Assembly: GCA_964016885.1 (NCBI GenBank)
Contig: OZ024741.1
Span: 279,310,001 to 279,374,000, forward strand
Reading direction: 5' to 3'
Length of the DNA: 64,000 nucleotides
Source: Eledone cirrhosa
Taxonomy: Eukaryota
A model generated the notes under the pieces. The model saw only the letters and a program-made list of their open reading frames with translations. It searched no databases and was not told the origin of the DNA. The translations under genes were made by a program, and so were the position numbers. Positions 2,212 through 55,544 of the stretch are shown here, one piece after another; the first letter of the stretch is position 1; every line of letters starts with the position of its first letter.

Positions 2212-2292
2212 ATCAAATTATTTTATCTGATGAAGACGTACTGTTGAAATAGCTCAGTATCTCTGAAATATGTATAATAAAATATATTTGAT
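2212..2292 (+). ncRNA. Type I minimal hammerhead ribozyme motif (Penelope pLTR type)
   Basis: Helix I ATCAAAT-TATTTTAT/ATAAAATA-t-ATTTGAT; CTGATGA 2227-2233; helix II AGAcGTACTG/CAGTATcTCT; GAAA 2265-2268; near-palindromic TATGTA; UA, predicted cleavage after 2276. Confidence 0.7.
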
Positions 2293-4199: not shown

Positions 4200-5195
4200 T
4201 TGAGCTCTTGGGGTTGGTGGTGATGTGGGCTTTCGTGTTTTTAGCACAAGAATAATCGAGTTACATCCTGTGTCTATTGAAGATAGATCGGTATTTATGC
4301 CCTGTAGGGAAGTGCTTATCTAGGAGTGGTAAGAATTTCTTACATTGGTTCTAACACTAATTGAGAAGGGTGGACAGAACCAAATTATTTTTTATTATTT
4401 CGACTTCTTTTCCTACTGGTGGTGGGGTTAAGAGGGGAGTAAGAAATTGTGTCAGAGAAGCTGTTGTTGGCTAACGGGGTGTTGTATAGGGTACTGTTCT
4501 ATCTAAGATGGCCTTGTTAGAAGAAAGGTTAGAGATTCTAGTGCCGATATTTTTTAAGAAGTTTTTGAAGATCATACATGAGTGGCATGAATCCTTGTGT
4601 ATGTAAGTTAATTTTTTTATTAAGTTTATAGAAAGGTCTGAATGTGTGTATGCGAAGGTCTAAATTAATGTCTAGATAATCTATGCTAGTCAGGTTTGTG
4701 GCTATCGTGATCCTAAGTCCTAACTCGTTAAAGGTAGTTATTAAGTCTTTTCTAAAGCGGTCCAGATCGTGACCACTTTTATGGCTCAAAAATGTCAGAC
4801 CATCGTAGCGGTATAAGCCCGTGTTGAAGTCTGGAAATCTGACTTGCAACATCTAAAATATATAAACCAACCAAATCGCATACATCAGCATTATTGAATG
4901 ATCCCATTGAGACGTTGAATAGTTCCAAGGTAGTTGACTTTTTTGTCCAGGCTACACCATTACTGAAGAGGGGGGTTTTCCTGCAGAGTGCAATGATCTG
5001 TCTACCCATGTCTTGGATGGCAGTATAAGTTGTGGCAAATTCTAACGCTTTATCCAACAGGGTCGGCAAGATCAACAGGTAGAAGTCCACTATATCAAAC
5101 TGGGTGAATTTTGTCTTTTTGGTGCTGAAAGAATTGAACCACTTAATAATAGAGCCACTGTTCTCCCATTGGGACAAGTTGGATTTCATCCTAAT
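4200..5195 (-). mobile_element. Degenerate Penelope-like element (Naiad-type) RT fragment
   Basis: QWENSGSIIKWF, FDIVDFY, MGSFNNADVCDLVGLYIL, GLYRYDG, YLDINLDL, IIWFCPPFS, HFPTGHKYRSIFN, split across frames by frameshifts and stops. Confidence 0.85.
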
Positions 5196-5284
5196 AGTCT
5201 TAATTATATACATATATATACATGTATATATCCATACATATATATATACACATATATACATATATATATATATATATATACATA

Positions 5285-7883
5285 CAATAAACCAACAACA
5301 ACCAGATATCGGGTAACCCCAAACACACAACTACATACAGACCCAATACTCAACACCAGAACCAGATACAACCACTGCCATAACACCAAGAACAATTACC
5401 GGAGACAAAATCAAAGACACATGAATACTAAACGAAACAACAGAAGAACCAGACCCCCATACAGCAACGACCACGCAAGAGTCTATCGCCCAACCAGTTA
5501 CCGGCATGAAGTTCCGGCGGACCAAAGGTTTCACCACAACAGAAACACCCCTATCCCAAATGCACCCATTTTTTAGGACTAGGGGCCTCACACCAAAGGA
5601 AAGAAAAAAAGAAAAAAGCACCACCTTTCAAGTGGCACCTGACGAGAAAGAACCAATCGAACCAAAAATAATCAATATATCAGCCAAGAAATTAACACAA
5701 CCAGAAATACAACTGTTAGAAAATGGACTGAAGTTCACTCCCACTCCGAAAGCAGATACAGCCGATGTTATAAAAGACACAGAAGAATACTGTCGAAAAT
5801 TACGCTTAGGAGAATTCTTCCAGGGTGTACAATACGAGGAAGAATCACTGGTGAAAAACAAAAAGAACTTCACACCCCCGCTAAATAGAGATAAATACCT
5901 GGAGAAGTACATAACCTGCCTTCGCCGATCAGCACGTACAAATACGGCCGAGACGAAACACAAACGCAACATCCCTACAGACCAACTACTAGCATTGAAC
6001 AAGCTACAAAGGGATTCCTCAATAATAATAAAAGAAGCGGACAAAGGTGGAGCAATTGTCATCATGGACATAAACCACTACAAAGATGAATGACGAAAAC
6101 TTCTACAGGAAAATCACTAAAAACGAAGAAAGGAAATCGAGGAACCAAATAGGCAAACTAACAACAAAGTACCAAAACAACCTAACACCAAAAGAAGTAG
6201 ATTACCTAACCAACTTCGAAATGAAAACCAGCAATTTCTATGGATTACCAAAAATTCACAAATCCATAGAAATCCAAAACAACATAAAAGGGAAAAATAC
6301 ATCATACATCGAAGCACCAAAACCGACAGACTTAAAATTACGCCCCATTATTGCTGGCCCAGCCTCAAGCACACAACGTCTAAGCAACCTATTAGACATC
6401 ATACTCAAACCCCTATGTAAAAAAGTTCCAAGCTACATCAGAGATGATATGGAATTCCTTAACTATATCCCCCAAAAAGTACACCAGGATACAATCCTAA
6501 TCAGTTTTGATGTAATAAGCCTGTACACTAACATCCCACACGACCTAGGGATTGAAGCTGTGGACTTCTGGATTACAAAACACTCAAGTCACATTTCAGA
6601 AAGATTCCCCCAAAGAATTCATCTTGGAAGGACTTAAATTAGTATTGGAAAACAACCACTTCCTCTTTGACAACAAACTTTATTTACAAATAAAAGGAAC
6701 AGCCATGGGTACCAAAGTGGCCCCTACATATGCAACGCTCGTTATGGGTCACTTAGAGGCAAAATTATATTCCCAACTACAGATAACATTCAGTCAGGAC
6801 TTCGCCTTCTACATTAATAAAAACTGGAAACGTTACCTAGATGACTGCTTCATCTTCTGGAACAGAAGCCAAACAGACCTACAAAAATTTTATTCAATCT
6901 TAAACAGGCTTCATGAAGCTATACAATTCACTATGGAATGTAACGAAAAGGAACTGCCCTTTCTAGATATCCTCATCATTAAAGAAGGGGAAAATGTCAT
7001 AACGGACCTATTTTGCAAACCCACTGACACACACCAATACTTAAATTTCCGGTCAGCACACCCCTCACATACGAAAAGGAACATTCCCTTCAACATGGCA
7101 AGGCGCATCTGCACTATAGCAACACACCCCGTACTACAAGAAAAAAGATTATGTGACCTGAAAAAATTCCTTAAAAAACAAGAATACCCGATGAAACTCA
7201 TCAACGCAGCATTCTCCAAGGCTAAGAACATCCCAATAACAACACTGAGAAAACCAAACCCACAACATAAAAAAGAAAACCCTGCTATCTCTTTTGTCAT
7301 CACTCACAACCCAGGGAACGTCAACATTGTGAAAACTGCTAAGCAGTATCTCCCGATTCTACAGCAATCTACCAAAATGAATGCACTCTTAAAAAAAACA
7401 CAGATAATTTATAGCTGACGCCAAGCACCCAACCTTAAAAAACTAATTACCAAGGCAAAATTTACGACCAACATGGAATCAATGCAAGTGACGAAATACG
7501 GGGACCCTAGATGTGGAACCTGTGAACTCATCGAAGAGGGCAAACAGTTGTCCTTCAAAAACCATGATAATTTCAAGGTCAATGCAAACATGAACTGCAA
7601 AACGAAAAACCTAATATATTGCGCATCATGTCCACAGTGTAAAGAGTATTACATTGGGGAAACCGGAACGGGACTACATGATAGAGTCCGGGTACATAAA
7701 CAACAAATTAAAGACCCCACAGTCAGAAATACCACATGTAGCGCACACTTTGCATCATGCGGGAAGGGAAAATTCACAATCTTCCCTTTCTTCAAGATAT
7801 GGTCGGATAACGAACATTTCCGCAGATATAAAGAAGAATTCTTCATTGAAAAATTTAAACCACTACTGAAAACGAAAAAATGA
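5285..7883 (+). mobile_element. Near full-length Penelope-like element (Neptune-type) RT + GIY-YIG endonuclease, disrupted
   Basis: GLKFTPTP, IIKEADKGGAIV, FYGLPKIHK, LRPIIAG, FDVISLYTNI, QIKGTAMGT, RYLDDCF, PFLD, PRCGTC linker, NLIYCASC..YYIGETG..R...H. Frameshifts near 6088 and 6610; in-frame TGA at 7416-7418. Confidence 0.92.
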
Positions 7884-8146: not shown

Positions 8147-8182
<36 letters not shown>

Positions 8183-8266
8183 CGTTTATTCTGGGTTGAA
8201 TCGGAGGTAACCACAGTAAGTAAGGTACTCAATACATTGCAGAGTATAAAAGTTTTAATATAGATG

Positions 8267-8317
8267 AGATTCTACAGGACTAGAACTGTTTCATTCTTTA
8301 GAAATCATCAGGAATCT
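8267..8317 (-). ncRNA. Type I hammerhead ribozyme motif (sense to the Naiad-type ORF)
   Basis: Exact reverse complement of 12372-12422. Confidence 0.8.
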
Positions 8318-8779
8318 GGGTATCAAAAAATAAGTATGGTATTTATAGGTCTCTACAAGTGGTAGGAGAGGGTGGGGAGTGGGATGGGTGTAGGTCATTG
8401 GTTGATAGAAAAGGGAATTCATTAAAAGCTAATTCTACAAAGCTATAGTTTATTTTTATTTATTTTTGTTTTTAGAGTAACAAAGGCAGACAGAATTCTA
8501 TAAACAGGTTCAGGATGGCATGCCACTCCTTATTATTAAGTTTCTCTTAAGTTAACAGGTGTCTATAAGATCAGTGGGGGGTCAGTCATGGTAGATAGAT
8601 TTAAAGGAAAGGGAGATTCTTTAAAAGCTAAATTCATTAAGGTTCTACTAAGTGACAAAGGTTTAGAGAATTCTGCAGACAAATTCAAAATATTGAGTGC
8701 ATATCTTACAATTATCTTCAAATTTCTCTTAAACTATTCAACTATATGCCAAAAATCAACAGACACATTAACAAAACAC

Positions 8780-9172
8780 ACACTCACACACTCGCGCGCA
8801 CCCATAAACACACATACACATATACACACATATACACACACACACATATAAATATATTTATATATATATATATATATACATATATACATATACATACACA
8901 CACATACATACACACATATATATGTATATATATATATATATAAATAAATATATATATATACATACATATACATACGCACATATATATATATATACACACA
9001 CACACACAAACACATATACACATATATAAGGAAAAATTGAACGGGAACAAAACAGAGGGGCAGAACAAACAAATGTTTATTAATTTCACGCTCTTGAGTG
9101 TGGGGTCACACACACATATATATATATACACACACATACACCATACATACATATATTTATATATATATATAT

Positions 9173-9211
<39 letters not shown>

Positions 9212-9212
9212 T

Positions 9213-9249
<37 letters not shown>

Positions 9250-9254
9250 CATAT

Positions 9255-9287
<33 letters not shown>

Positions 9288-9346
9288 CACACACATACAC
9301 ACACATACATATATAAATACATACATACACATACATATACACATAT

Positions 9347-9383
<37 letters not shown>

Positions 9384-9508
9384 TATATATACACACACAC
9401 ATACACACACACACACATGCACACACACACATGCACACACATCTATATATATATACATACACACACATATATACATACACATACACACATATATATATAT
9501 ATATATAT

Positions 9509-9589
<81 letters not shown>

Positions 9590-9808
9590 TATACATATAT
9601 ATATACACACACACATATACATACACACATACACATATACATACATATATATATATATATATACACATATATACACATATATACATATAAACACATATAT
9701 ACATGTATATATATATATATACATATATATACACACATATATACATATATATACATATATACACATACACACATATATATACACACGCACACACACACAT
9801 ATATATAC

Positions 9809-9877
<69 letters not shown>

Positions 9878-10026
9878 CATACATATACACATATACACAC
9901 ACATATACATATATACATATATATACACATATATACACACATATACATATATATACACATAAATAAACACATATACACACATAAATAAACACATATACAC
10001 ACATATATACACATACATACACATGC

Positions 10027-10077
<51 letters not shown>

Positions 10078-10148
10078 TACATATATACACATACACACGA
10101 ATATACAGACACACACATACACACATACGTATACATAAATAAATAAAC

Positions 10149-10195
<47 letters not shown>

Positions 10196-10238
10196 TATAC
10201 ATACATATATATACATATATATACATATATATATATAC

Positions 10239-10277
<39 letters not shown>

Positions 10278-10386
10278 CATACACATATACATACATATAT
10301 ATATACACACACACACACACACGTACATACATACACCTACATATACACATATACATATATATATATATATATACATAAAAATATAT

Positions 10387-10423
<37 letters not shown>

Positions 10424-10430
10424 TATATAC

Positions 10431-10463
<33 letters not shown>

Positions 10464-10478
10464 CATACATACATACAC

Positions 10479-10509
<31 letters not shown>

Positions 10510-10875
10510 CACGACGGTTGGATGGCCACTGATGAGGACAAACTTTTTCATATATACATATATACATATATATATATATACATATATATATACACAAACA
10601 TACACACATACACACATACATATATACACATATACATACACACATACACATACATACACATATATAAATATATACATATACACACATATATATACACATA
10701 TACACACACACACACATATATACATAAACATATACACATATACATATATATATATATAAATATATACACATACATACATACGCATACATACACATATATA
10801 TATATATATACATATATATACACACATATATATATATATATACATATACACACATACATATATACACATACACAC

Positions 10876-10914
<39 letters not shown>

Positions 10915-11000
10915 TACCCATATACACATGTGCACACATACACATACATACACATACACATACATATACACAAAAATATACACATACAAATAAATAAGTA
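8780..11000. repeat. About 2.2-kb compound (TA)n/(CA)n/(TACA)n microsatellite
   Basis: Directly visible; source of many spurious Y/I/V/C/H/T ORFs. Confidence 0.97.
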
Positions 11001-12371
11001 CTCAATAAATATACGCATATACGCAGGCACATAAAAACACCTCTACAGGCAGAAAATGTAGATAGGTAAGAGGTACTCACATAACCATAGTGGCCGTATT
11101 TCAGGTTGAGGAGGGGTGGGGGTAGGGTAGGAAGGAGGTATAGGGGCCAATAGGAGGAGGTCGTTTTTAGCCATCGGGCTTTAACACTGGCTTAAAGTGT
11201 TTGAAAGTTGCAAAGTTCTTGTGCATGCAGTTCGGGCAGTGTTCAGAGAGTTTGTTCAGTAGCGGGCCCTTGGCGAATAAAATTTCGTAGCTCTCTGAAA
11301 TACAAAGGTCGCAGCCCTTGTGTCCTCTGTTGTAAGAGCACGCTTTCTGGAGTATTTTCCATTTAAGCGTGAAGGGGGTGGAGTTCCTTTTGAGGTCCCA
11401 AACATAGGAGGCGAGTGTTGTCTGGTTAGATTTGTCCGGTCTTCTGAAGGAGTGGGTATGGGCATACCAACGGGTCTTAAAGTTGTTGGAGGTCATGCCG
11501 ATGTAAGTTTTTTTGCAATCATCGGTGCCTGAGATGACATCACATTTGTATACGATATCATTTGTGAGGCATTTGTTTTCAAGTGGGCATGCTTCCTTAT
11601 TTAGGCAATTACAAAGAGCCCCAGTCCGGGGATTGGGTTCGGAGGTGGTTGGCTTATTTAATTTTTTAGAATTGTGGTTGGCTATATTCCTAGCTAGGTT
11701 AGGTGTGGTGGAGTAGGAGAGTCTTATTGTGTTCTTATTAAAGATGGTGTGGTACCTATGTTGTATGGGGAAGTGTAATTTCAGCAAAGTGAAGAAAATC
11801 CTAGCTATCGGAGTAGAGACCTCTCTATTGAAGGGAGGGTTGTACCAGCTAATCTGCCTATGTCTATTCCTCCTCTGCAATCTTGCGGTGGTTTCTAGGT
11901 ATGTTATCTTTTCTTTAAATCCGCTACGGGCGAGGGCGTCATTGTAGTAGGAGGCAGATGCGTTAAAAATATCTTTGTTGGCGGAGAGGCCAGATATTCT
12001 AATAGAGACGCTTTTTACTAGGTTATCAGTGATGTTTTGGGGGTGGTTTGAATTAACATTAATATATTTAAGGGACTCGTTAGGTTTGTGGTACGGGTAA
12101 TAGAGGGAAGTATCTAGGTCGAGAGTGACATCTAAGAAGTTGGCCCTAGTCAAATTAGATTCTATAGTTATACTAAATCCTAGATTAGAGAAGAATGAGC
12201 TTAAGTTTTTCCGAAACCCATCGGTGGTTCTGGGGTTAACCTTATGCAGAGCGAAGAGGCCGTCGTCTCGGTATAAACCTCCCGTTAGGCCGGTAAAGAG
12301 GTTCTTCAGCTCCCCACCCTCTCCTACCACTTGTAGAGACCTAGAAATACCATACTTATTTTTTGATACCC

Positions 12372-12422
12372 AGATTCCTGATGATTTCTAAAGAATGAAA
12401 CAGTTCTAGTCCTGTAGAATCT
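12372..12422 (+). ncRNA. Type I hammerhead ribozyme motif in the inverted pLTR
   Basis: AGATTC-CTGATGA-tTTCTaaAGAAt-GAAA-CAG-ttCTAGtc-CTG-TA-GAATCT; predicted cleavage after 12416. Confidence 0.8.
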
Positions 12423-12587
12423 CATCTATATTAAAACTATATGTATATATACATATAGATATATGTTTATATGTGTGTGTATGTATATGTATGTATCTAT
12501 ATGTGTGTGTGTGTATGTATGTGCATATATGTATATATGTGTGTACGTATATGTATGTTTCTGTATGTGTATATGTATGTATGTAGA

Positions 12588-12618
<31 letters not shown>

Positions 12619-12740
12619 GTCTTTATGTGTTTGTGTGTACACGTGTGTGTATACGTGTGTGTGTGTGTGTGTATGTGTATATATGTATATTTAGTTATGT
12701 ATCTTTATGTGTGTATGTATATGTATGTATATATATATAT

Positions 12741-12927
12741 AATTGTTTCTACTTTAGGCACAAGGCCAGCAATTACCCAGTGTATTACTGGTACTTTATT
12801 TTATCGACCCTGTAAGGATGAAAGGCAAAGTCAACCTCGGCGGGATTTGAACTCAGATCGTAAAGGGACGTAACTATGCTGGAAAGCATGGCGTCCGACT
12901 CTCTACCGATACTGCCAATCCACCGCC
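12741..12927 (-). mobile_element. tRNA-derived SINE (family B)
   Basis: Reverse complement of the about 190-bp unit at 42627-42815; A box TGGCAGTATCGG, B box GAGTTCAAATCC. Confidence 0.88.
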
Positions 12928-12982: not shown

Positions 12983-13400
12983 TATATATTGGTAAACGGA
13001 ATAGAAAATGCTGACAAATTGTTCACAGTTGAAAAATGGTTTAATTAGGAATAAAAGAGTATTAGTGATTGTATGGGTTAGTATTCAGTTGTGGTTTTAA
13101 GTTTTTAAGTTTTTACCGGTTGCGCATTTCTAAATGCTTTTCAAAAATAATTTTGAGATAGAGTGTCCGTGCTGTTTGCTCTGATCAGAGCAAACAGATC
13201 AGAGCAAACAGCACGGACACTCTATCTCAAAATTATTTTTGAAAAGCATTTAGAAATGCGCAACCGGTAAAAACTTAAAAACTTAAAACCACAACTGAAT
13301 ACTAACCCATACAATCACTAATACTCTTTTATTCCTAATTAAACCATTTTTCAACTGTGAACAATTTGTCAGCATTTTCTATTCCGTTTACCAATATATA
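12983..13400. repeat. Palindrome with 204-bp arms and a 14-bp duplication at the centre
   Basis: Arms 12983-13186 and 13197-13400; GATCAGAGCAAACA occurs twice (13183-13210); flanked by (TA)n. Confidence 0.95.
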
Positions 13401-17458: not shown

Positions 17459-18000
17459 TCAGGAGATGTAAATTTTCTTGGTGCGAGGAGGCTTTTCTAC
17501 AGCACTAACAGTTAATGGCCACATTCCACCAATTATACCTGCCTGGATAGAAACACCAATAGCCACAGCTAGTTCTGGTTCAACCGATGTATTTGGGTCT
17601 TTCTTGAAATACTCTTTGATCAGTTGTCGAACCCTCGGTATTCGAGTTGATCCACCAACCAAAACAATATCATGTACTTCACTGCAGTCCATCTCTACCA
17701 CATCTAATACAGAATCAATAGGTTCAAGTACTTTTTCAAACAAGTCAGTATTGAGTTCTTCAAAAACTTTTCTAGTGAGAGTAGTGTGGAATGTCGGTGT
17801 TCCTTGAAAAGAAGTGATTTTCATGCTGATATCTGTAGACAACTTATCAGTCAGAATCAATTTAGCCTCCTCCACTTGAAAGCGCAGTGTCTGTCTGTCT
17901 GTCTTGTCAACTAATTGTTTATTGAACTGTTTACTGATCAGAGTTAATAGATGGTCAGTAAGACGTTGATTAAAGTCTTGTCCACCTAAACGGTTATTAC
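17459..18000 (-). CDS. HSPA13: HSPA13 (STCH, atypical ER Hsp70) coding exon 7 (last)
   Basis: ttcctttcag|GT AAT AAC CGT; GNNRLGGQDFNQR...IVLVGGSTRIP...GGMWPLTVSAVE..., TGA at 17459-17461; 542 nt. Confidence 0.95.
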
Positions 18001-18119
18001 CTGAAAGGAAAAGAAAATAAAGAAAACATTGTTTTAATTAAATATTTGGCTTTGTTTTAAAAAAATGTAATCTCCTAAATGAGAAGTTACCCCCAAAATA
18101 TATAATTCTCCTACACCAA

Positions 18120-22782: not shown

Positions 22783-24070
22783 CATTTGTTATGGCTCTAA
22801 TCTCATCAAGGACAACTTTGCCTTTCATCATTCTGAGGTGAATAAAATAAAGCACCACTCATGTACTGAAGGGAAGGGAGGGGGGGGTAATATAATTGCT
22901 GGCCTTGTGCCTAAATTAAAACTCATCACTACATGAGTCTCAGCCATCCTGATTTTTTTGAGGAAGGGAAAACTGATTATATTTACTCTAGTACTTGACT
23001 GAGGTAAGTATAATCCCGTCAAGGTCAACTTAGCCTTTCATCATTCTGGGGTCAATAAAATAAAGTACCAGTCATGTACTGGGGATGGATTTAATCGACT
23101 TCCACTTTGCCCTTCCTCCAAATTGCTCGAAAGAATTATATCTTAGAAAATATAGCAACAGTCTGTCACCTGTTTAATTCTCATGGACAAATGATGATGA
23201 TGATAATGATGATGATGACAGCTATAAGATTGATTTTTATGAATAATTCTGACTCATAAAACCAAATACAGATATGTGTGTGTGTGTGTGTGTGTATGTA
23301 GTAAAGAGGTTTGCATAGCAACCGTGTGTTTCCATGTTTTATTCCACACCATAACACTAACACCATGGAGGCAACATGTTAGCAGTGATGTTAGAATGTC
23401 AGATAGAATGCCTTACAGTATTTCTTCCATCTCTCTGTTCTCTGAGTTCAAATCCCACCAAGGTCAACTTTGTCTTTCAACCTTTGGAGGTTGAGAAAAA
23501 AATTATCATTCTAGTACTGGGATTAATTCTTCCTCTATATCTCTTCCTCATTCCTTCTATGAAAGAAATTAACTGTGTTCAGATTTGGAGAACATCCCTA
23601 CAACTCCATTAAGAGTTATGTACCCTTACATACATAACACTTTGGGCAAATGTCTTCTATTATTGCCTCAGGCTTAGCAATGCCTTATGAAAGGAATTCA
23701 TTAACAGAAGTTGTGCAAAAGCCTATCACACACATATGCATAGCATATGTATATGTATATATGTGTGTGTGTGTGTATACCACTGTAAAAACTGCATTCC
23801 ACATTGTAAAGTGGTCGTGTTGGTGTCACAACAAAAAGCACATGGTCCACACTATCAGTTGGTTGTTTTGGTGCCATGATAGAAAGCACCCAGCACACAC
23901 TGTAAATGAAGTTGGCATTAGGAAGGGCATCCAGTCATAGAAACCAAACCAGAAACAGTTCTGTATGAGTAAGACACAGTCATCTGATCTGACTTGTCTC
24001 ACACCAGGACAACTCATCTAACCCATGCTAGTGTGGAAAAATGGATGTTAAATGGTGATAATGATGATGA

Positions 24071-24111
<41 letters not shown>

Positions 24112-24126
24112 AACAATAAAACATAC

Positions 24127-24346
24127 CAATGAGATTTGCAGTTTTTCTGGTGTAATTACGCTGTATTTCATCAAATTCAGCTGGCACCGAGATAACAACT
24201 TTTTTAACAGAAACTGATAAATTCCGATCTGCAGCTCCAACTAAAGTCCGAATGAGAATGCTGCCAATTTCTTCAGGTGTCATGTATGTAATATTATTAT
24301 TAACATTGATGTGGAACATAGGATATCCACTATTCTTTAAAGACAT
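24127..24346 (-). CDS. HSPA13: HSPA13 coding exon 5
   Basis: ttttacag|ATG TCT; TPEEIGS...VVISVPAEFDEIQRNYTRKTANLIG|gtatgt; 220 nt. Confidence 0.95.
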
Positions 24347-25875
24347 CTGTAAAACAAAATGAATACATAACTCAGAGACAGAAGAAATAATGAACATTTT
24401 AGTTAAATTTAGACAGCTATATATCAGGGAATTGTTTTCCCTTTATTGATGTGAAGACAAGCATGCAGAAACATAACAGAGGCAGAAGAAATAATCAAAG
24501 TTTTACTTTTATATGCATGCATGCATGGTCCTGTAACTCCTGGGGGAGTCATAGGGGTGCCATATTGACATATGGTGTTTCTAAAGCAAATTTTAAACTT
24601 GGTGGAACCCATCTACTCTCCAAGTTTGAATATAGCAGATTTCTTTCAGAGAAAGATAGAGAATGTGGGAATGGAAGTAAGGACGATATATAAAGAAAGA
24701 ATCAACCCCAGTACTTGACTGGTACTTTTTTTTATCAATTCTAAATGGATGAAAAGCAATGTTGACCCCAGTGGGATTTGTACTCAGAGAGCAGAGTCAA
24801 AATGAATACCATAAAGTATTTTATCCGATGTTTTAACAAATCTGCCAATTCACCACCTAATTTTATATAGACAGCTATATATCAAGAAATTATATAGACA
24901 GCTATATATCAAGAGAGAGAATGAGACACATGTAAGGGCAAATATATCTATTATAGGAAAACAGAGAACACATATATAGAACTAATCAGAGAAATAGATA
25001 TCTGTACAATCATTAATGAAGATAAGCAGATAAATTAATAGAGCCATGGAGATACAAGACTGCCATTCTTAGTAAGCACTATAGGCCGTATTTTTTTTAA
25101 GAACTCTAACTACAAGATAAAGTAAATTCTTGACACTGAAATGACTTCTGTCTAGCACTACCTAGGTGTCAATGGAACTATCCAGGTTATTGACTGAGCT
25201 TTTGGGCCAACACCCGACATTTGTATAAGAAATGAATATACAATAAAGTACAGCTTGCTTATATAGGTTAGTGATTTATATATACTGTAAAGTGGCCATG
25301 TTGGTGTCATGACAAAAAGTGTCCCAGTCCACACTTTAACTCAGTCATTTGAAAAGAAACAATTTAAATCTACAAAATGTCAGCCAAAGATTTTACCTGA
25401 GATACTATTACAAACAGCACTGATCTTAGAACTAATAATACCACCAAAATAACAGAACTTATTGACTACAACCAGTGAATCTAACTAGGCAGTCATAAGC
25501 TGGTCTCAAATATTAAGTCTATCAATATCTTGGGTTCCCAATCAGTTTAGCAACTAAACATTATTGGAATCCAATATGATGAAAGAAAAAAGCAATTTTA
25601 AATTACTAGCTGAGTAGTTTTAGAAGTTCACATGTAGTTCTGAGTTCAGTCCCACTGCATGACACCTTAGGCAAGTGTCTTCTGCTATAGCCTTTGGTAA
25701 ATGGGAACTCTGTGAAAGCCCATCATTTATGTGTATTTGTGTATATTTTCACTTCAAAAACATTGCTAAGTTGGTGAACCTCTTACCATACTGAAACGCA
25801 TGAGTTGGCATCAGCAAGAGCATCTGGCTGTAGAAATTTGCCATGGATAAAACAATAAGATTTTATTGAACAAAC

Positions 25876-53157: not shown

Positions 53158-54624
53158 TCACAAATACCAAATAGAAATACTATCAAACTATCTTACTCTA
53201 CTGCAACCAACATAGAATCACACATACATAAAATTAACTATAAAAGAATCTCTCATGAAAATAACCTACAAACAAACACCAAATACAAAACACAAACACA
53301 TAACATCACAACCACACACACGTCAGAACGCATCACAACAAAACATCAACAAACCCAAATCTCAGTCCATACATAACAACATTCAAAACCACATCGATGA
53401 ACCGGCACATAGGAAGGCCTCAAAATGTAACTGTCACTTACTGGATAAGTGCCCACTACAAAATAGATGCCTGGCGTCAAATATAGTGTACCTGTGTACT
53501 ATAAATTCAGGCAACTTAGCATGGCACTACATAGGTTCTACGGCAGGGGAGTTAAAAAAAAGATGGTACGTCCACAGACACTTTATAAAGAACCGTAGAC
53601 TAATGAACACAACAACGCTCTCCAATAAAATCTGGCAGCTTAAAGATACAAACCAAGAATACTGGATTAGCTGGTCGAAACTGTCAGCGGCAAAGGCCTA
53701 CAGAAATGGAATGTTCCACTGCGGACTTTGCAATATGGAGTTGCTCTATATTTTAAAATATGACAAAATGCTGCTTAACAGCAAAATAGAACGGTCAATT
53801 TTCTGTAGGCATAAAGCAGCTACTAAATTCGCTAATTTCAAACCAACTTGATTCGACCCAGCAATTCCATAATTCAAACTGTACCACCTGAGTCTACTAT
53901 AATAGCCCATTATTATTATTAACTGTCAATAAATCAACTAATCAATGAATCAACATCATAACCTCCTAACTTTTCTTTCTTTCACTCTCTTTCCCTAAAT
54001 CTATTTCACCTCTTACATTATATCCTATCGTATATCTTCACTTCTAACATAACTTCCAATTTATTAATTTATTAATTTAACCAATACATATATGTATATA
54101 TTTAGTATTTTCATGTTTATACCATCACATCTTTATATTTTAACCACCAACACCACAACTATTTTCAACAATCATATTGTTCACTTTTCTTCGCACATAT
54201 ATAAAAAAAAATTATTTATTTTTATCTTCATTCTAACTTATTTACTATTATTTATTTATTACTTTTTCTTTTTCTTTTTCTTTTTCTTTTTCTTTTTCTT
54301 TTTCTTTTTCTTTTTTTCTTTTTTTCTTTTTTTCTTTTTCTCTTCTTTTTTCTCTTCTTTTTTCTTTCTTTTTCTCTCTCTTTCTTTCTGTCTTTTTCTT
54401 TCTTTATTACTGATGTTATAATTTGAACTTTCCTAGTATATTACAAACGCTGTGTATAATTTTAATCAGTTTCTGATGATTTGGTTAAGCATACATTGTA
54501 TTTAAAATTGAGTGACACAACTTCAAGTGATTAGTAATTTTTAGACAACTTAATCAATGAAACAATTGTTAATACTATAATTAAAACCCTTTTTGTACTG
54601 TTGACCATGTTATTCTTCATTCTT

Positions 54625-54691: not shown

Positions 54692-54720
54692 TCAGTATGA
54701 TTCTACTTTAATGCTTTCAG

Positions 54721-54863
54721 GTAAGAGTGGTTGTCGTCCAGAAGAGGTTAAAGACATTGTGGAATTTGTCATTAACCAGTGTCCCCAACTAAAGTTCTGT
54801 GGTTTAATGACAATTGGATCATTCAACCATGACCTCAGTAAAGGACCAAATCCTGATTTCCAG
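54721..54863 (+). CDS. PLPBP: PLPBP exon 6
   Basis: tttcag|GT AAG; SKSGC...[28 protein letters not shown]|gtatgt; 143 nt. Confidence 0.97.
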
Positions 54864-54924: not shown

Positions 54925-55200
54925 TTATAAACTGACAAAAATCAGTCTGTTGACACAGAAGTAAATATTTTAAAATTAGATCCAGACACATTATATGGTA
55001 TAACCCACCATATAATATGGAATTGGCCACATTAATAGCTAAAGCTTTTCTTACTTTAATTAGGAAGTATTTCTCCTTAGCACATAAATATAAGATTTTT
55101 AATAGAAACACAGTTAACATATCCTATTCTACAACTCCCAGCCTCGCACACAACATTGCTGCATCTAACTTAGCAAAATTACTGAGCCGTAGTAATATAA
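54925..55200 (+). mobile_element. Naiad-type PLE internal fragment
   Basis: RSRHIIWYNPPYN...YFSLAHKYKIFNRNTVNISYSTTP. Confidence 0.8.
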
Positions 55201-55544
55201 ACAATTCTGAATATAATATAATTTTATACTATAAGATAAGATATGCAAATATAGCAATTTGTATTATATATGTCCTTGTGTAGTATGTATAATACAAGAG
55301 AACTATATTGAATGTTAGGCAGTGAGATAATTTCAAAATGAAATAAGATAAAAAATATAAATGATATGTAATGTAGGTTTCAATATAAATACCTGAAAAA
55401 CACTAAATTATAAAGGTAAAAAGGTAAGAGTTTAGTCAGTACAAGACATAGAAGTTCAAGAAGAAACAAATGTAGTTTGAACGTAATGTATTTTTCATAA
55501 TTCATTTTTGTTCATTTATTTAACACCCAACTTTCATTATATTT

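What the first reader, a model, noticed from the sequence alone, without database searches (positions are those of the whole stretch)
8251..12438. Young Naiad-type element bracketed by inverted, hammerhead-bearing pLTR segments
Seen: a 129-bp inverted repeat with one mismatch, each arm holding an identical 51-nt hammerhead (helix III CAG/CTG, palindromic CTAG in the loop). The right arm is fused directly to the truncated RT just before GLYRDDG, and about 380 codons remain uninterrupted. Removing the 2.2-kb microsatellite leaves roughly 0.6 kb between stop and ribozyme, similar to the 53851-54473 spacing in the other Naiad-type copy. Established: PLEs often have an inverted 5' pLTR and carry hammerheads. 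Inference: a recent insertion, with a self-cleaving site on transcripts of either strand.
Basis: partly seen in the sequence, partly recalled or inferred. Interest (0 to 1): 0.72.

Follow-up and report, generated by a model that had tools for sequence, protein, structure and literature searches.

The report
Young Hydra-clade Penelope with mirrored ribozymes
This is a likely recent, shortened copy of a very abundant Penelope-type jumping gene with Hydra-clade (not Naiad) features, whose mirrored ends each carry a predicted hammerhead ribozyme as is common in its family, and nearly half of the sampled family ends stop at the ribozyme's first bases, 30 bases below a TATA box, which likely marks where its RNA starts rather than where the ribozyme would cut.

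Summary
In detail: a 129-bp inverted repeat with one mismatch, identical 51-nt type I hammerheads, and a 380-codon open RT-endonuclease fragment. The label is wrong. The GIY-YIG is C-terminal and full-length sisters carry RWR, DKT, CxCX5C and CxxC/CxH: Hydra clade, already reported from octopus. Naiads have an N-terminal endonuclease and no canonical hammerhead. The element also extends to about 8181 (one-sided tail), and the microsatellite is part of the family's 3'UTR. The copy is one of thousands (12,934 exact hits of a 21-mer) and its layout is known. The family statistics add more. Of 100 sampled arms, 46 end at positions 442-456, the hammerhead's 5' edge, 30 nt below TATAAATA and on an Inr-like site, often with an extra G; 2 end at the predicted cut. 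In 76 of 79 two-armed insertions one arm is short and one tailed, and 51 of 51 scorable arm pairs share a loop variant. Best reading: both cut DNA ends prime reverse transcription at two fixed sites on mostly uncleaved, capped RNA from one donor. The scan noted this run-off pattern before on other DNA (unreviewed). Cleavage and transcription start are untested.

The parts
8169..8183 (+). Left copy of a candidate 15-nt target-site duplication (overlaps the element end by 3 nt) in a TA/TG microsatellite
   Evidence: identical to 12438-12452; occurs once in each flanking tract in this orientation
8181..8250 (-). One-sided tail (family positions 511-579), the start of the next unit's 5'UTR; outer RT start site (inferred)
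   Evidence: DNA reads end at the same two sites
8267..8317 (-). Sense type I hammerhead motif in the 3' pLTR; predicted cut after 8273; first base 8317 is the inferred transcription start (family A444)
8340..8347 (-). TATA box TATAAATA, first T 30 nt upstream of 8317
   Evidence: kept at -29/-30 in two sister subfamilies with diverged spacers
8251..8772 (-). Unique distal 3'UTR / pLTR region
   Evidence: 2861 candidates, 40 scored at 97-100% identity
8773..10990 (-). Family-intrinsic, length-variable TA/TG microsatellite in the 3'UTR (2218 nt here)
10991..11166 (-). Unique proximal 3'UTR
11167..12309 (-). 5'-truncated ORF, 380 codons: RT from just before YRDD, thumb, CxCX5C linker, C-terminal GIY-YIG, CxxC and CxH; C-terminal part of a 713-aa protein
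   Evidence: (GIY-YIG E 0.001, below Pfam cut-off)
12310..12438 (+). Inverted 5'-truncated pLTR arm (family 382-510, no tail), joined blunt to the ORF; its one mismatch changes TATAAATA to TAGAAATA
12372..12422 (+). Outward-facing type I hammerhead motif; predicted cut after 12416
12438..12452 (+). Right copy of the candidate target-site duplication

Best explanation
It is a 5'-truncated, likely recent insertion of a high-copy Penelope-like retrotransposon with Hydra-clade motifs, likely made when the element's endonuclease cut both strands of a (TA)n target and each DNA end primed its own reverse transcription on RNA from one donor, one at the tail site and one about 70 nt further upstream. 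Here the tail-primed cDNA ran about 4.1 kb and stopped in the RT gene, the other ran 129 nt, and the two were joined blunt, head to head (layout shown, steps inferred). The family's RNA is inferred to start at the first base of the hammerhead, 30 nt below a TATA box in the pLTR. When priming happens in the 5' leader, both cDNAs would run off the capped end and give the family's commonest product, a 115-250-bp double-hammerhead palindrome. Longer arms, as here, need the pLTR copy at the RNA's 3' end, a read-through RNA or a template switch. The hammerhead is conserved with covariation and is likely catalytic under some conditions, but most templates were likely uncut. The two ribozymes at this locus are a by-product of insertion, not a device for cutting both strands' transcripts.
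For: Family link and layout. Hydra motifs: against PMC8557442 section 11; same CUGAUGA-U...U-GAAA layout as most Hydra-genus rows of its File S2. Wall of 5' ends: 46 of 100 arms at 442-456 and 26 at 442-446, against 5.8 and 1.5 expected; only 4 at 430-441; 2 at 487-489. 34 of 78 exact-hammerhead arms end at 442-445. 11 of 75 start-codon-containing copies end at 428-456, against 2.5 expected, scan p<1/300. TATA at -30, kept in sister subfamilies. G precedes A444 in 9 of 15 cases after setting aside 2 templated G. 76 of 79 two-armed insertions pair a short with a tailed arm. Among 12 long ones the inverted arm is tailed in 7 and short in 5, so either end can make the long cDNA. 51 of 51 scorable pairs of 79 share the loop-II variant. 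54 distinct sequences among 55 short elements, so independent events. In vitro precedent: two internal RT start sites, both strands extended, uncut RNA the main template (PMC11167929). Covariation A446-U492 to C-G.
Against: No RNA 5' end was observed; the start site is inferred from DNA. The two arms of one insertion are not independent, so the p-values are overstated. The 100 arms are the first 100 of 12,934 hits, all from one 47-Mb stretch of C1. Ends spread over 442-456 and some are ambiguous through microhomology. The extra-G set is small (15, with two junctions repeated), and G also precedes 12 of 34 starts at 445. 43 of 100 arms, including both arms here, extend upstream of the inferred start, and the model does not fix how. 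D. virilis Penelope has a TATA-less internal promoter (PMC2377424 passages). The second family in the window gave an unclear result. The full 713-aa protein had no Pfam hit at E<=0.01, and clade placement was not tested on a tree.
Confidence: 0.72

Rival explanations
1. The inverted arm is made by fold-back or self-priming: one cDNA turns and copies itself, so only one RNA-primed event is needed.
For: Explains identical variants in both arms (51 of 51) and near-perfect palindromes. Self-priming was proposed for rotifer PLEs (PMC3846280 passages). At least one junction (L243) has the form expected from fold-back through helix I.
Against: In 7 of 12 long insertions the inverted arm carries the tail and the main body does not, so it cannot be copied from the main cDNA. 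In the window copy the junction has no homology and lies about 3.9 kb from the copied sequence.
Confidence: 0.12
2. Hammerhead cleavage defines the template: the RNA is cut at both pLTRs, circularised and copied round the circle, which gives the long and tandem copies.
For: Proposed in PMC4209133. 47 of 75 start-codon-containing copies run on upstream of position 428. The motif is conserved with covariation. A seamless circle would leave no mark at the cut.
Against: It does not explain the wall at 444, which also appears in ORF-containing copies. Linear cut RNA is rarely a template (2 of 100 and 2 of 75). Ribozyme mutants did not alter insertion in vitro for an anole PLE. It may still hold for the long copies alongside the best explanation.
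Confidence: 0.2
3. The wall at 444-446 comes from RNA structure (RT stalling at the hammerhead) or from a 3' splice site (CAG at 443-445), not from the transcription start.
For: The wall coincides with the edge of helix I. A T-run and CAG precede position 446. The D. virilis Penelope intron ends at helix I (PMC4209133).
Against: A stall should fall at the 3' side of the helix (about 494), where ends are scarce: 11 of 100 over 457-488. Many arms keep the AG that splicing would remove and share no upstream exon. A conserved TATA at -30 and the extra G fit a capped start.
Confidence: 0.1
4. One reading: a Naiad element whose two hammerheads act as self-cleaving sites on transcripts of either strand at this locus.
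For: Both motifs are intact. An HSP70-family gene on the minus strand ends about 5 kb away, so read-through is conceivable.
Against: Domain order and motifs exclude Naiad. The layout is shared by many copies. The monomer's active fold is not the lowest-energy fold. The TATA box of the outward arm is mutated.
Confidence: 0.04

Closest known systems
Hydra clade of PLEs (Craig et al. 2021, PMC8557442), e.g. Hydra-1_Obim from Octopus bimaculoides and Penelope-13_HM
   Same: C-terminal GIY-YIG, DKT, CxCX5C linker, CxxC/CxH around the catalytic E and N, canonical 3' hammerhead, (TA)n targets; Penelope-13_HM is listed with an inverted 5'-truncated copy and a hammerhead on each strand.
   Different: A different family from Hydra-1_Obim: different hammerhead, and a visibly different protein by eye against printed lines (no alignment run). 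RWR in place of RWK. 8-nt loop III. A 0.4-5 kb microsatellite in the 3'UTR makes it longer than the <3 kb typical of the clade. Thousands of copies.
Poseidon from Anolis carolinensis (PAc; Frangieh et al. 2024, PMC11167929)
   Same: Two RT start sites that bound the tail, both strands extended, AT-rich targets, uncut RNA as main template.
   Different: Poseidon clade; its start sites lie inside the ORF and its hammerhead overlaps the start codon, whereas here all lie in the 5'UTR (Met 137 nt after the cut). The paper saw no strand difference in start site; here each insertion pairs one site with the other.
Adineta vaga EN+ Penelopes (PMC3846280) and D. virilis Penelope (PMC2377424)
   Same: Inverted 5' pLTR, one-sided tail, palindromic junctions, transcription start inside the pLTR; a TATA plus Inr was noted in Pen2a_Av.
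   Different: D. virilis has a TATA-less internal promoter and an intron. In the passages read, neither paper reports insertion ends piling up at the start site.
Naiad clade (PMC8557442)
   Same: PLE RT, (TA)n targets, inverted and tandem layouts, tail.
   Different: Naiads have an N-terminal endonuclease, CxC linker, DKA and CCHH, and lack canonical hammerheads.
Non-LTR retrozymes (bioRxiv 10.64898/2026.07.22.740005)
   Same: Type I hammerhead related to PLE pLTRs; other public DNA runs show 76-78-nt tandem units of this hammerhead region.
   Different: Retrozymes are head-to-tail non-coding repeats; this locus is an ORF-bearing insertion, and the short family products are head-to-head.

Membership tests
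Naiad | N-terminal GIY-YIG endonuclease upstream of RT | tested here: not met
   GIY-YIG follows RT at the C-terminus
Naiad | DKA motif | tested here: not met
   Full-length sisters have SDKT
Naiad | No canonical hammerhead | tested here: not met
   Full type I motif present
Hydra clade PLE | Single ORF, RT then C-terminal GIY-YIG | tested here: met
   Open full-length frames in L034, L036, L040, L045, L052; 713 aa from Met
Hydra clade PLE | DKT in place of DKG | tested here: met
Hydra clade PLE | N-terminal RWK motif | tested here: inconclusive
   RWR at the matching place (RIRWRAFF; Hydra-1_Obim RMRWKAFF): conservative change, not exact
Hydra clade PLE | CxCX5C linker; CxxC and CxH around the conserved E and N | tested here: met
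   CNCLNKEAC, CDLC, CMH
Hydra clade PLE | CCHH motif absent | tested here: met
   No CxxC in the GIY-YIG core and no distal H; two Cys eight residues apart are present, the second absent from the 53216 copy. Judged by eye.
Hydra clade PLE | Canonical hammerhead near the 3' end; (TA)n targets | tested here: met
Hydra clade PLE | Generally short (<3 kb) | tested here: inconclusive
   About 3 kb of unique sequence plus a 0.4-5 kb microsatellite; a tendency in the paper, not a strict criterion
Hydra clade PLE | Placement in the Hydra clade on an RT tree | not tested
   Reference proteins were seen only as printed supplement text, so no tree was built
Type I hammerhead ribozyme | Conserved core and three helices, supported by covariation | tested here: met
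   Core intact; compensatory helix I pair in L138, L038, L175; variation in loop II. No Rfam hit.
Type I hammerhead ribozyme | Self-cleavage after the NUH triplet | not testable with these tools
   Active fold -4.2 against minimum -7.6 kcal/mol; two copies can pair through helix III at -14.8
Non-LTR retrozyme | Head-to-tail non-coding repeats, each with a hammerhead | tested here: not met
   ORF-bearing single insertion with head-to-head arms

The most novel reading that the evidence does not exclude
Penelope-like elements of this kind make a strong-stop-like DNA. A dimeric RT-endonuclease primes both target ends at two repeated sites in the 5' leader of its own capped mRNA, whose first 51 nt are the hammerhead. 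Most events run off the cap and leave thousands of double-ribozyme palindromes. Long copies and the upstream promoter are regenerated only by a strand transfer or by a ribozyme-made circle, and cleavage would act as a self-decapping switch 45 nt from the cap.
Probability: 0.3. Interest if true: 0.72.

Novelty: new member of a known kind. Interest (0 to 1): 0.42.

Why it matters
The locus itself is ordinary. Its family bears on two questions the read papers call open: how pLTRs and inverted structures are made, and what the hammerhead does. The copies give exact, testable coordinates: a start site at the ribozyme's first base, two RT start sites used one per DNA end, and almost no use of cut RNA as a linear template. 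Intact full-length ORFs exist in the genome, so the cycle can be tested in vitro. Four literature searches listed no paper whose title or abstract start reports this pile-up of ends; the library lacks most subscription journals.

Tried and rejected
Rfam scan of the window: no hammerhead family hit, only microsatellite-driven miRNA matches. The repeat finder was swamped by microsatellites. My first idea, that copies begin at the ribozyme cut, was rejected: 2 of 75 and 2 of 100, the latter one duplicated element. One search was mis-aimed (wrong orientation of L040, outside the element) and discarded. The count of the TATA-region 30-mer (444 hits) is not comparable with the others because that region differs between subfamilies, so it was not used. 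Expression: no RNA holder listed. Insertion polymorphism: no listed piece in four laid runs bridged the 12309/12310 junction, but the runs differ from this copy at many sites, so this cannot be told. Loose ends at family position 447 probably reflect the sister subfamily's mismatch at 446 and are not counted as support for the wall. Second family (54400-54600; 1811 exact hits, first 30 mapped): 0 of 30 end at its cut and 10 of 30 align only from 54467-54482, but subfamily divergence confounds this: inconclusive. The twin-hairpin idea from note e1-9515904 was not clearly reproduced: the predicted hairpins start at 508 and 587, though both ends sit at a shared AC-TTTT motif. Pfam gave no hit for the full protein at E<=0.01. 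The search for a paper on cap-derived extra G gave none that I read; that signature and the TATA/Inr consensus are recalled. A separate hairpin (MITE-like) family was rejected because the short elements differ from each other. Not run: protein homologue searches, structure prediction, tree. Supplementary figures of PMC11167929 and the supplements of the bioRxiv preprint were not seen and may bear on the novelty claim.
Full report
Family positions below count along the unique distal 3'UTR of L069; position p is about window 8761-p on the left arm.

Observation. An ungapped comparison gives arms 8251-8379 and 12310-12438, 129 bp, one mismatch at 8345/12344. A descriptor scan finds the same type I hammerhead motif in both arms, on opposite strands, with predicted cuts after 8273 (-) and 12416 (+). 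Rfam lists no hammerhead in the window at E<=1. The minus-strand frame from 12309 is open for 380 codons and holds YRDD, CNCLNKEAC, a GIY-YIG-like core (Pfam E 0.001, below cut-off), CDLC and CMH. Against full-length sisters the arm-ORF junction is blunt.

Family. The distal 3'UTR has 2861 first-look candidates and the ORF part 2095; the 40 scored in each search are mostly 96-99% identical. Exact patterns give 75 hits across the start codon, 5487 for 49 nt of the hammerhead and 12,934 for the 21 nt after the cut; reversed controls give 0. Among 40 ten-kb loci, five (L034, L036, L040, L045, L052) have an open full-length frame, 713 aa from Met in L034. The window copy continues to about 8181 with a tail that, in tandem copies, leads into the 5'UTR. 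A TA/TG-rich spacer of 435-5257 nt lies in the 3'UTR of all 25 loci, of 40, where both anchors were found, so the microsatellite travels with the element.

Clade. Craig et al. (PMC8557442; I read the abstract, passages, sections 10, 11 and 15, part 2 of 59 of the supplement and search hits in it) define Naiads by an N-terminal endonuclease and no canonical hammerhead. They define Hydra by a C-terminal endonuclease, RWK, DKT, CxCX5C, no CCHH, CxxC/CxH, a canonical hammerhead and (TA)n targets. The sisters show RWR, DKT, CxCX5C, CxxC and CxH. Hydra-1_Obim is already listed from Octopus bimaculoides with a different hammerhead. No tree was built, and Pfam finds nothing in the full protein at E<=0.01. 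The host was not identified.

Age. The ORF fragment differs from the majority of 40 sisters at 16 of 1143 sites, 12 of them synonymous; only 2 bases are seen in no sister; the nearest sister is 1.14% away. A 15-nt direct repeat flanks the element exactly (8169-8183, 12438-12452) and occurs once in each flanking tract in that orientation. In microsatellite it is a candidate, not a proven, target-site duplication. A recent single insertion is likely.

3' ends. Of 100 arms, 36 end at 510-521, 59 at 574-582, 2 at 529 and 3 run on into the ORF; DNA reads of other runs show loose ends at the same two sites. Of 79 two-armed insertions, 76 pair a short arm with a tailed arm, 1 has two short arms and 2 have an intermediate end; about half would be mixed by chance. 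The window copy follows the rule. In 12 long insertions the inverted arm is tailed in 7 and short in 5, which argues against simple fold-back. Both arms carry the same loop-II variant in 51 of 51 scorable pairs (38 AA, 13 AT), so both come from one donor. This fits the in vitro results for an anole PLE: two internal start sites, both strands extended, uncut RNA the main substrate (PMC11167929, parts 1-2 of 4 read). The one-sided tail itself is known.

5' ends. I first tested for a pile-up at the cut and found none: 2 of 75 start-codon copies (all 75 hits mapped) and 2 of the first 100 of 12,934 arms. Instead 46 of the 100 end at 442-456 and 26 at 442-446 (5.8 and 1.5 expected under constant hazard), with only 4 at 430-441. 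34 of 78 exact-hammerhead arms end at 442-445, and 11 of the 75 ORF copies end at 428-456 (2.5 expected; 0 of 300 simulations as extreme). Paired arms are not independent, and the 100 and the 78 come from the start of C1 and overlap. A444 is the first base of helix I, lies 30 nt below TATAAATA and sits in CCAGATT, which fits the initiator consensus (recalled). Two sister subfamilies keep TATAAATA at -29 and -30 with diverged spacers. Of 17 copies with a non-reference base before A444, 2 had a G explained by the inverted arm and were set aside; 9 of the other 15 have G (p 0.004 against 25%), and 3 of the 6 others are intact pLTRs with a point change. An extra G is the recalled mark of copying over a cap; the set is small and G also precedes 12 of 34 starts at 445. 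At least 52 of the 100 arms lie in two-armed elements of 250 bp or less, and 54 of 55 such elements are distinct in sequence.

Ribozyme. Helix I shows a compensatory change in sister subfamilies, and read variation concentrates in loop II, so the structure is likely under selection. The active fold of the 51-mer is -4.2 kcal/mol against -7.6 for the minimum; two copies can pair through helix III at -14.8. Metazoan PLE hammerheads cleave weakly or need help (PMC4209133, parts 1-2 of 4), and opposite-strand pairs 100-700 bp apart were already noted in Schistosoma. Activity here is untested. The lone arm mismatch destroys the TATA box of the outward arm: one event, with no claim of selection.

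Mechanism. Shown: layout, family link, end distributions, arm pairing. Inferred: double-strand cut in (TA)n, separate priming of each end at the two sites, a capped RNA starting at A444, blunt head-to-head joining. Open: how 43 of 100 arms, including both here, get sequence upstream of the start; the 3' pLTR of the RNA, read-through RNA, a template switch or a ribozyme-made circle all fit. Transcription start inside the pLTR is known for D. virilis Penelope, TATA-less (PMC2377424 passages), and a TATA plus Inr was noted in a rotifer pLTR (PMC3846280 passages). Of the retrozyme preprint I read part 1 of 5 and passages.

Earlier notes. After I had recorded this reading, the scan's index returned eight unreviewed notes, two from this genome, with the same or a related reading. 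They are not independent evidence. Look-ups by sequence and by place returned nothing.

Verdict. It is a new family of a known clade in a known layout. The locus is ordinary; the family-level end map gives specific, testable predictions about the PLE cycle. Interest 0.42.

Noticed in passing
window 5425-7883 (+): A second, broken PLE with C-terminal GIY-YIG, CGTC linker and CxxC in the core (Neptune/Nematis-like by motif); the described element sits in the microsatellite just after its stop.
   Followed up: partly
window 53216-54620 (+): Second Hydra-type family (CxCX5C); hammerhead-like motif at 54473-54570 with a long helix II region and palindromic helix III; 1811 exact hits of a downstream 22-mer; TCAGTT at the start of helix I.
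   Followed up: partly
window 4538-5330 (-) and 54954-55283 (+): Further decayed fragments similar by eye to the Hydra-type ORF.
   Followed up: no
window 2219-2284 (+): Another hammerhead-like motif with an 8-bp helix I; related motifs occur in several fetched loci, beside many other hammerhead types.
   Followed up: partly
window 12983-13400: A 418-bp near-perfect palindrome (98%) about 0.5 kb from the element; origin not examined.
   Followed up: no
window 9028-9110 and 10511-10550: Two short non-repetitive islands inside the microsatellite, shared by a few close sisters such as L039, L069, L070; the second holds a CTGATGA.
   Followed up: partly
runs X1, X22, X23 on family positions about 430-508: Head-to-tail joints of 76-78 nt spanning the hammerhead, retrozyme-like tandem units; not looked for in G000.
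   Followed up: no
window 17462-18037 and 24017-24442 (-); 54704-54850 (+): HSP70-family exons (HSPA13-like, recalled) and a PLP-binding-protein-like exon (weak Ala_racemase_N hit).
   Followed up: partly
L069, L074 (G000:C2, 16.67-16.70 Mb): Near-identical full-length units about 8.5 kb apart, 99% identical to the window copy; a candidate donor array.
   Followed up: no
window 12739-12927: A SINE-like repeat with several copies in the window.
   Followed up: no
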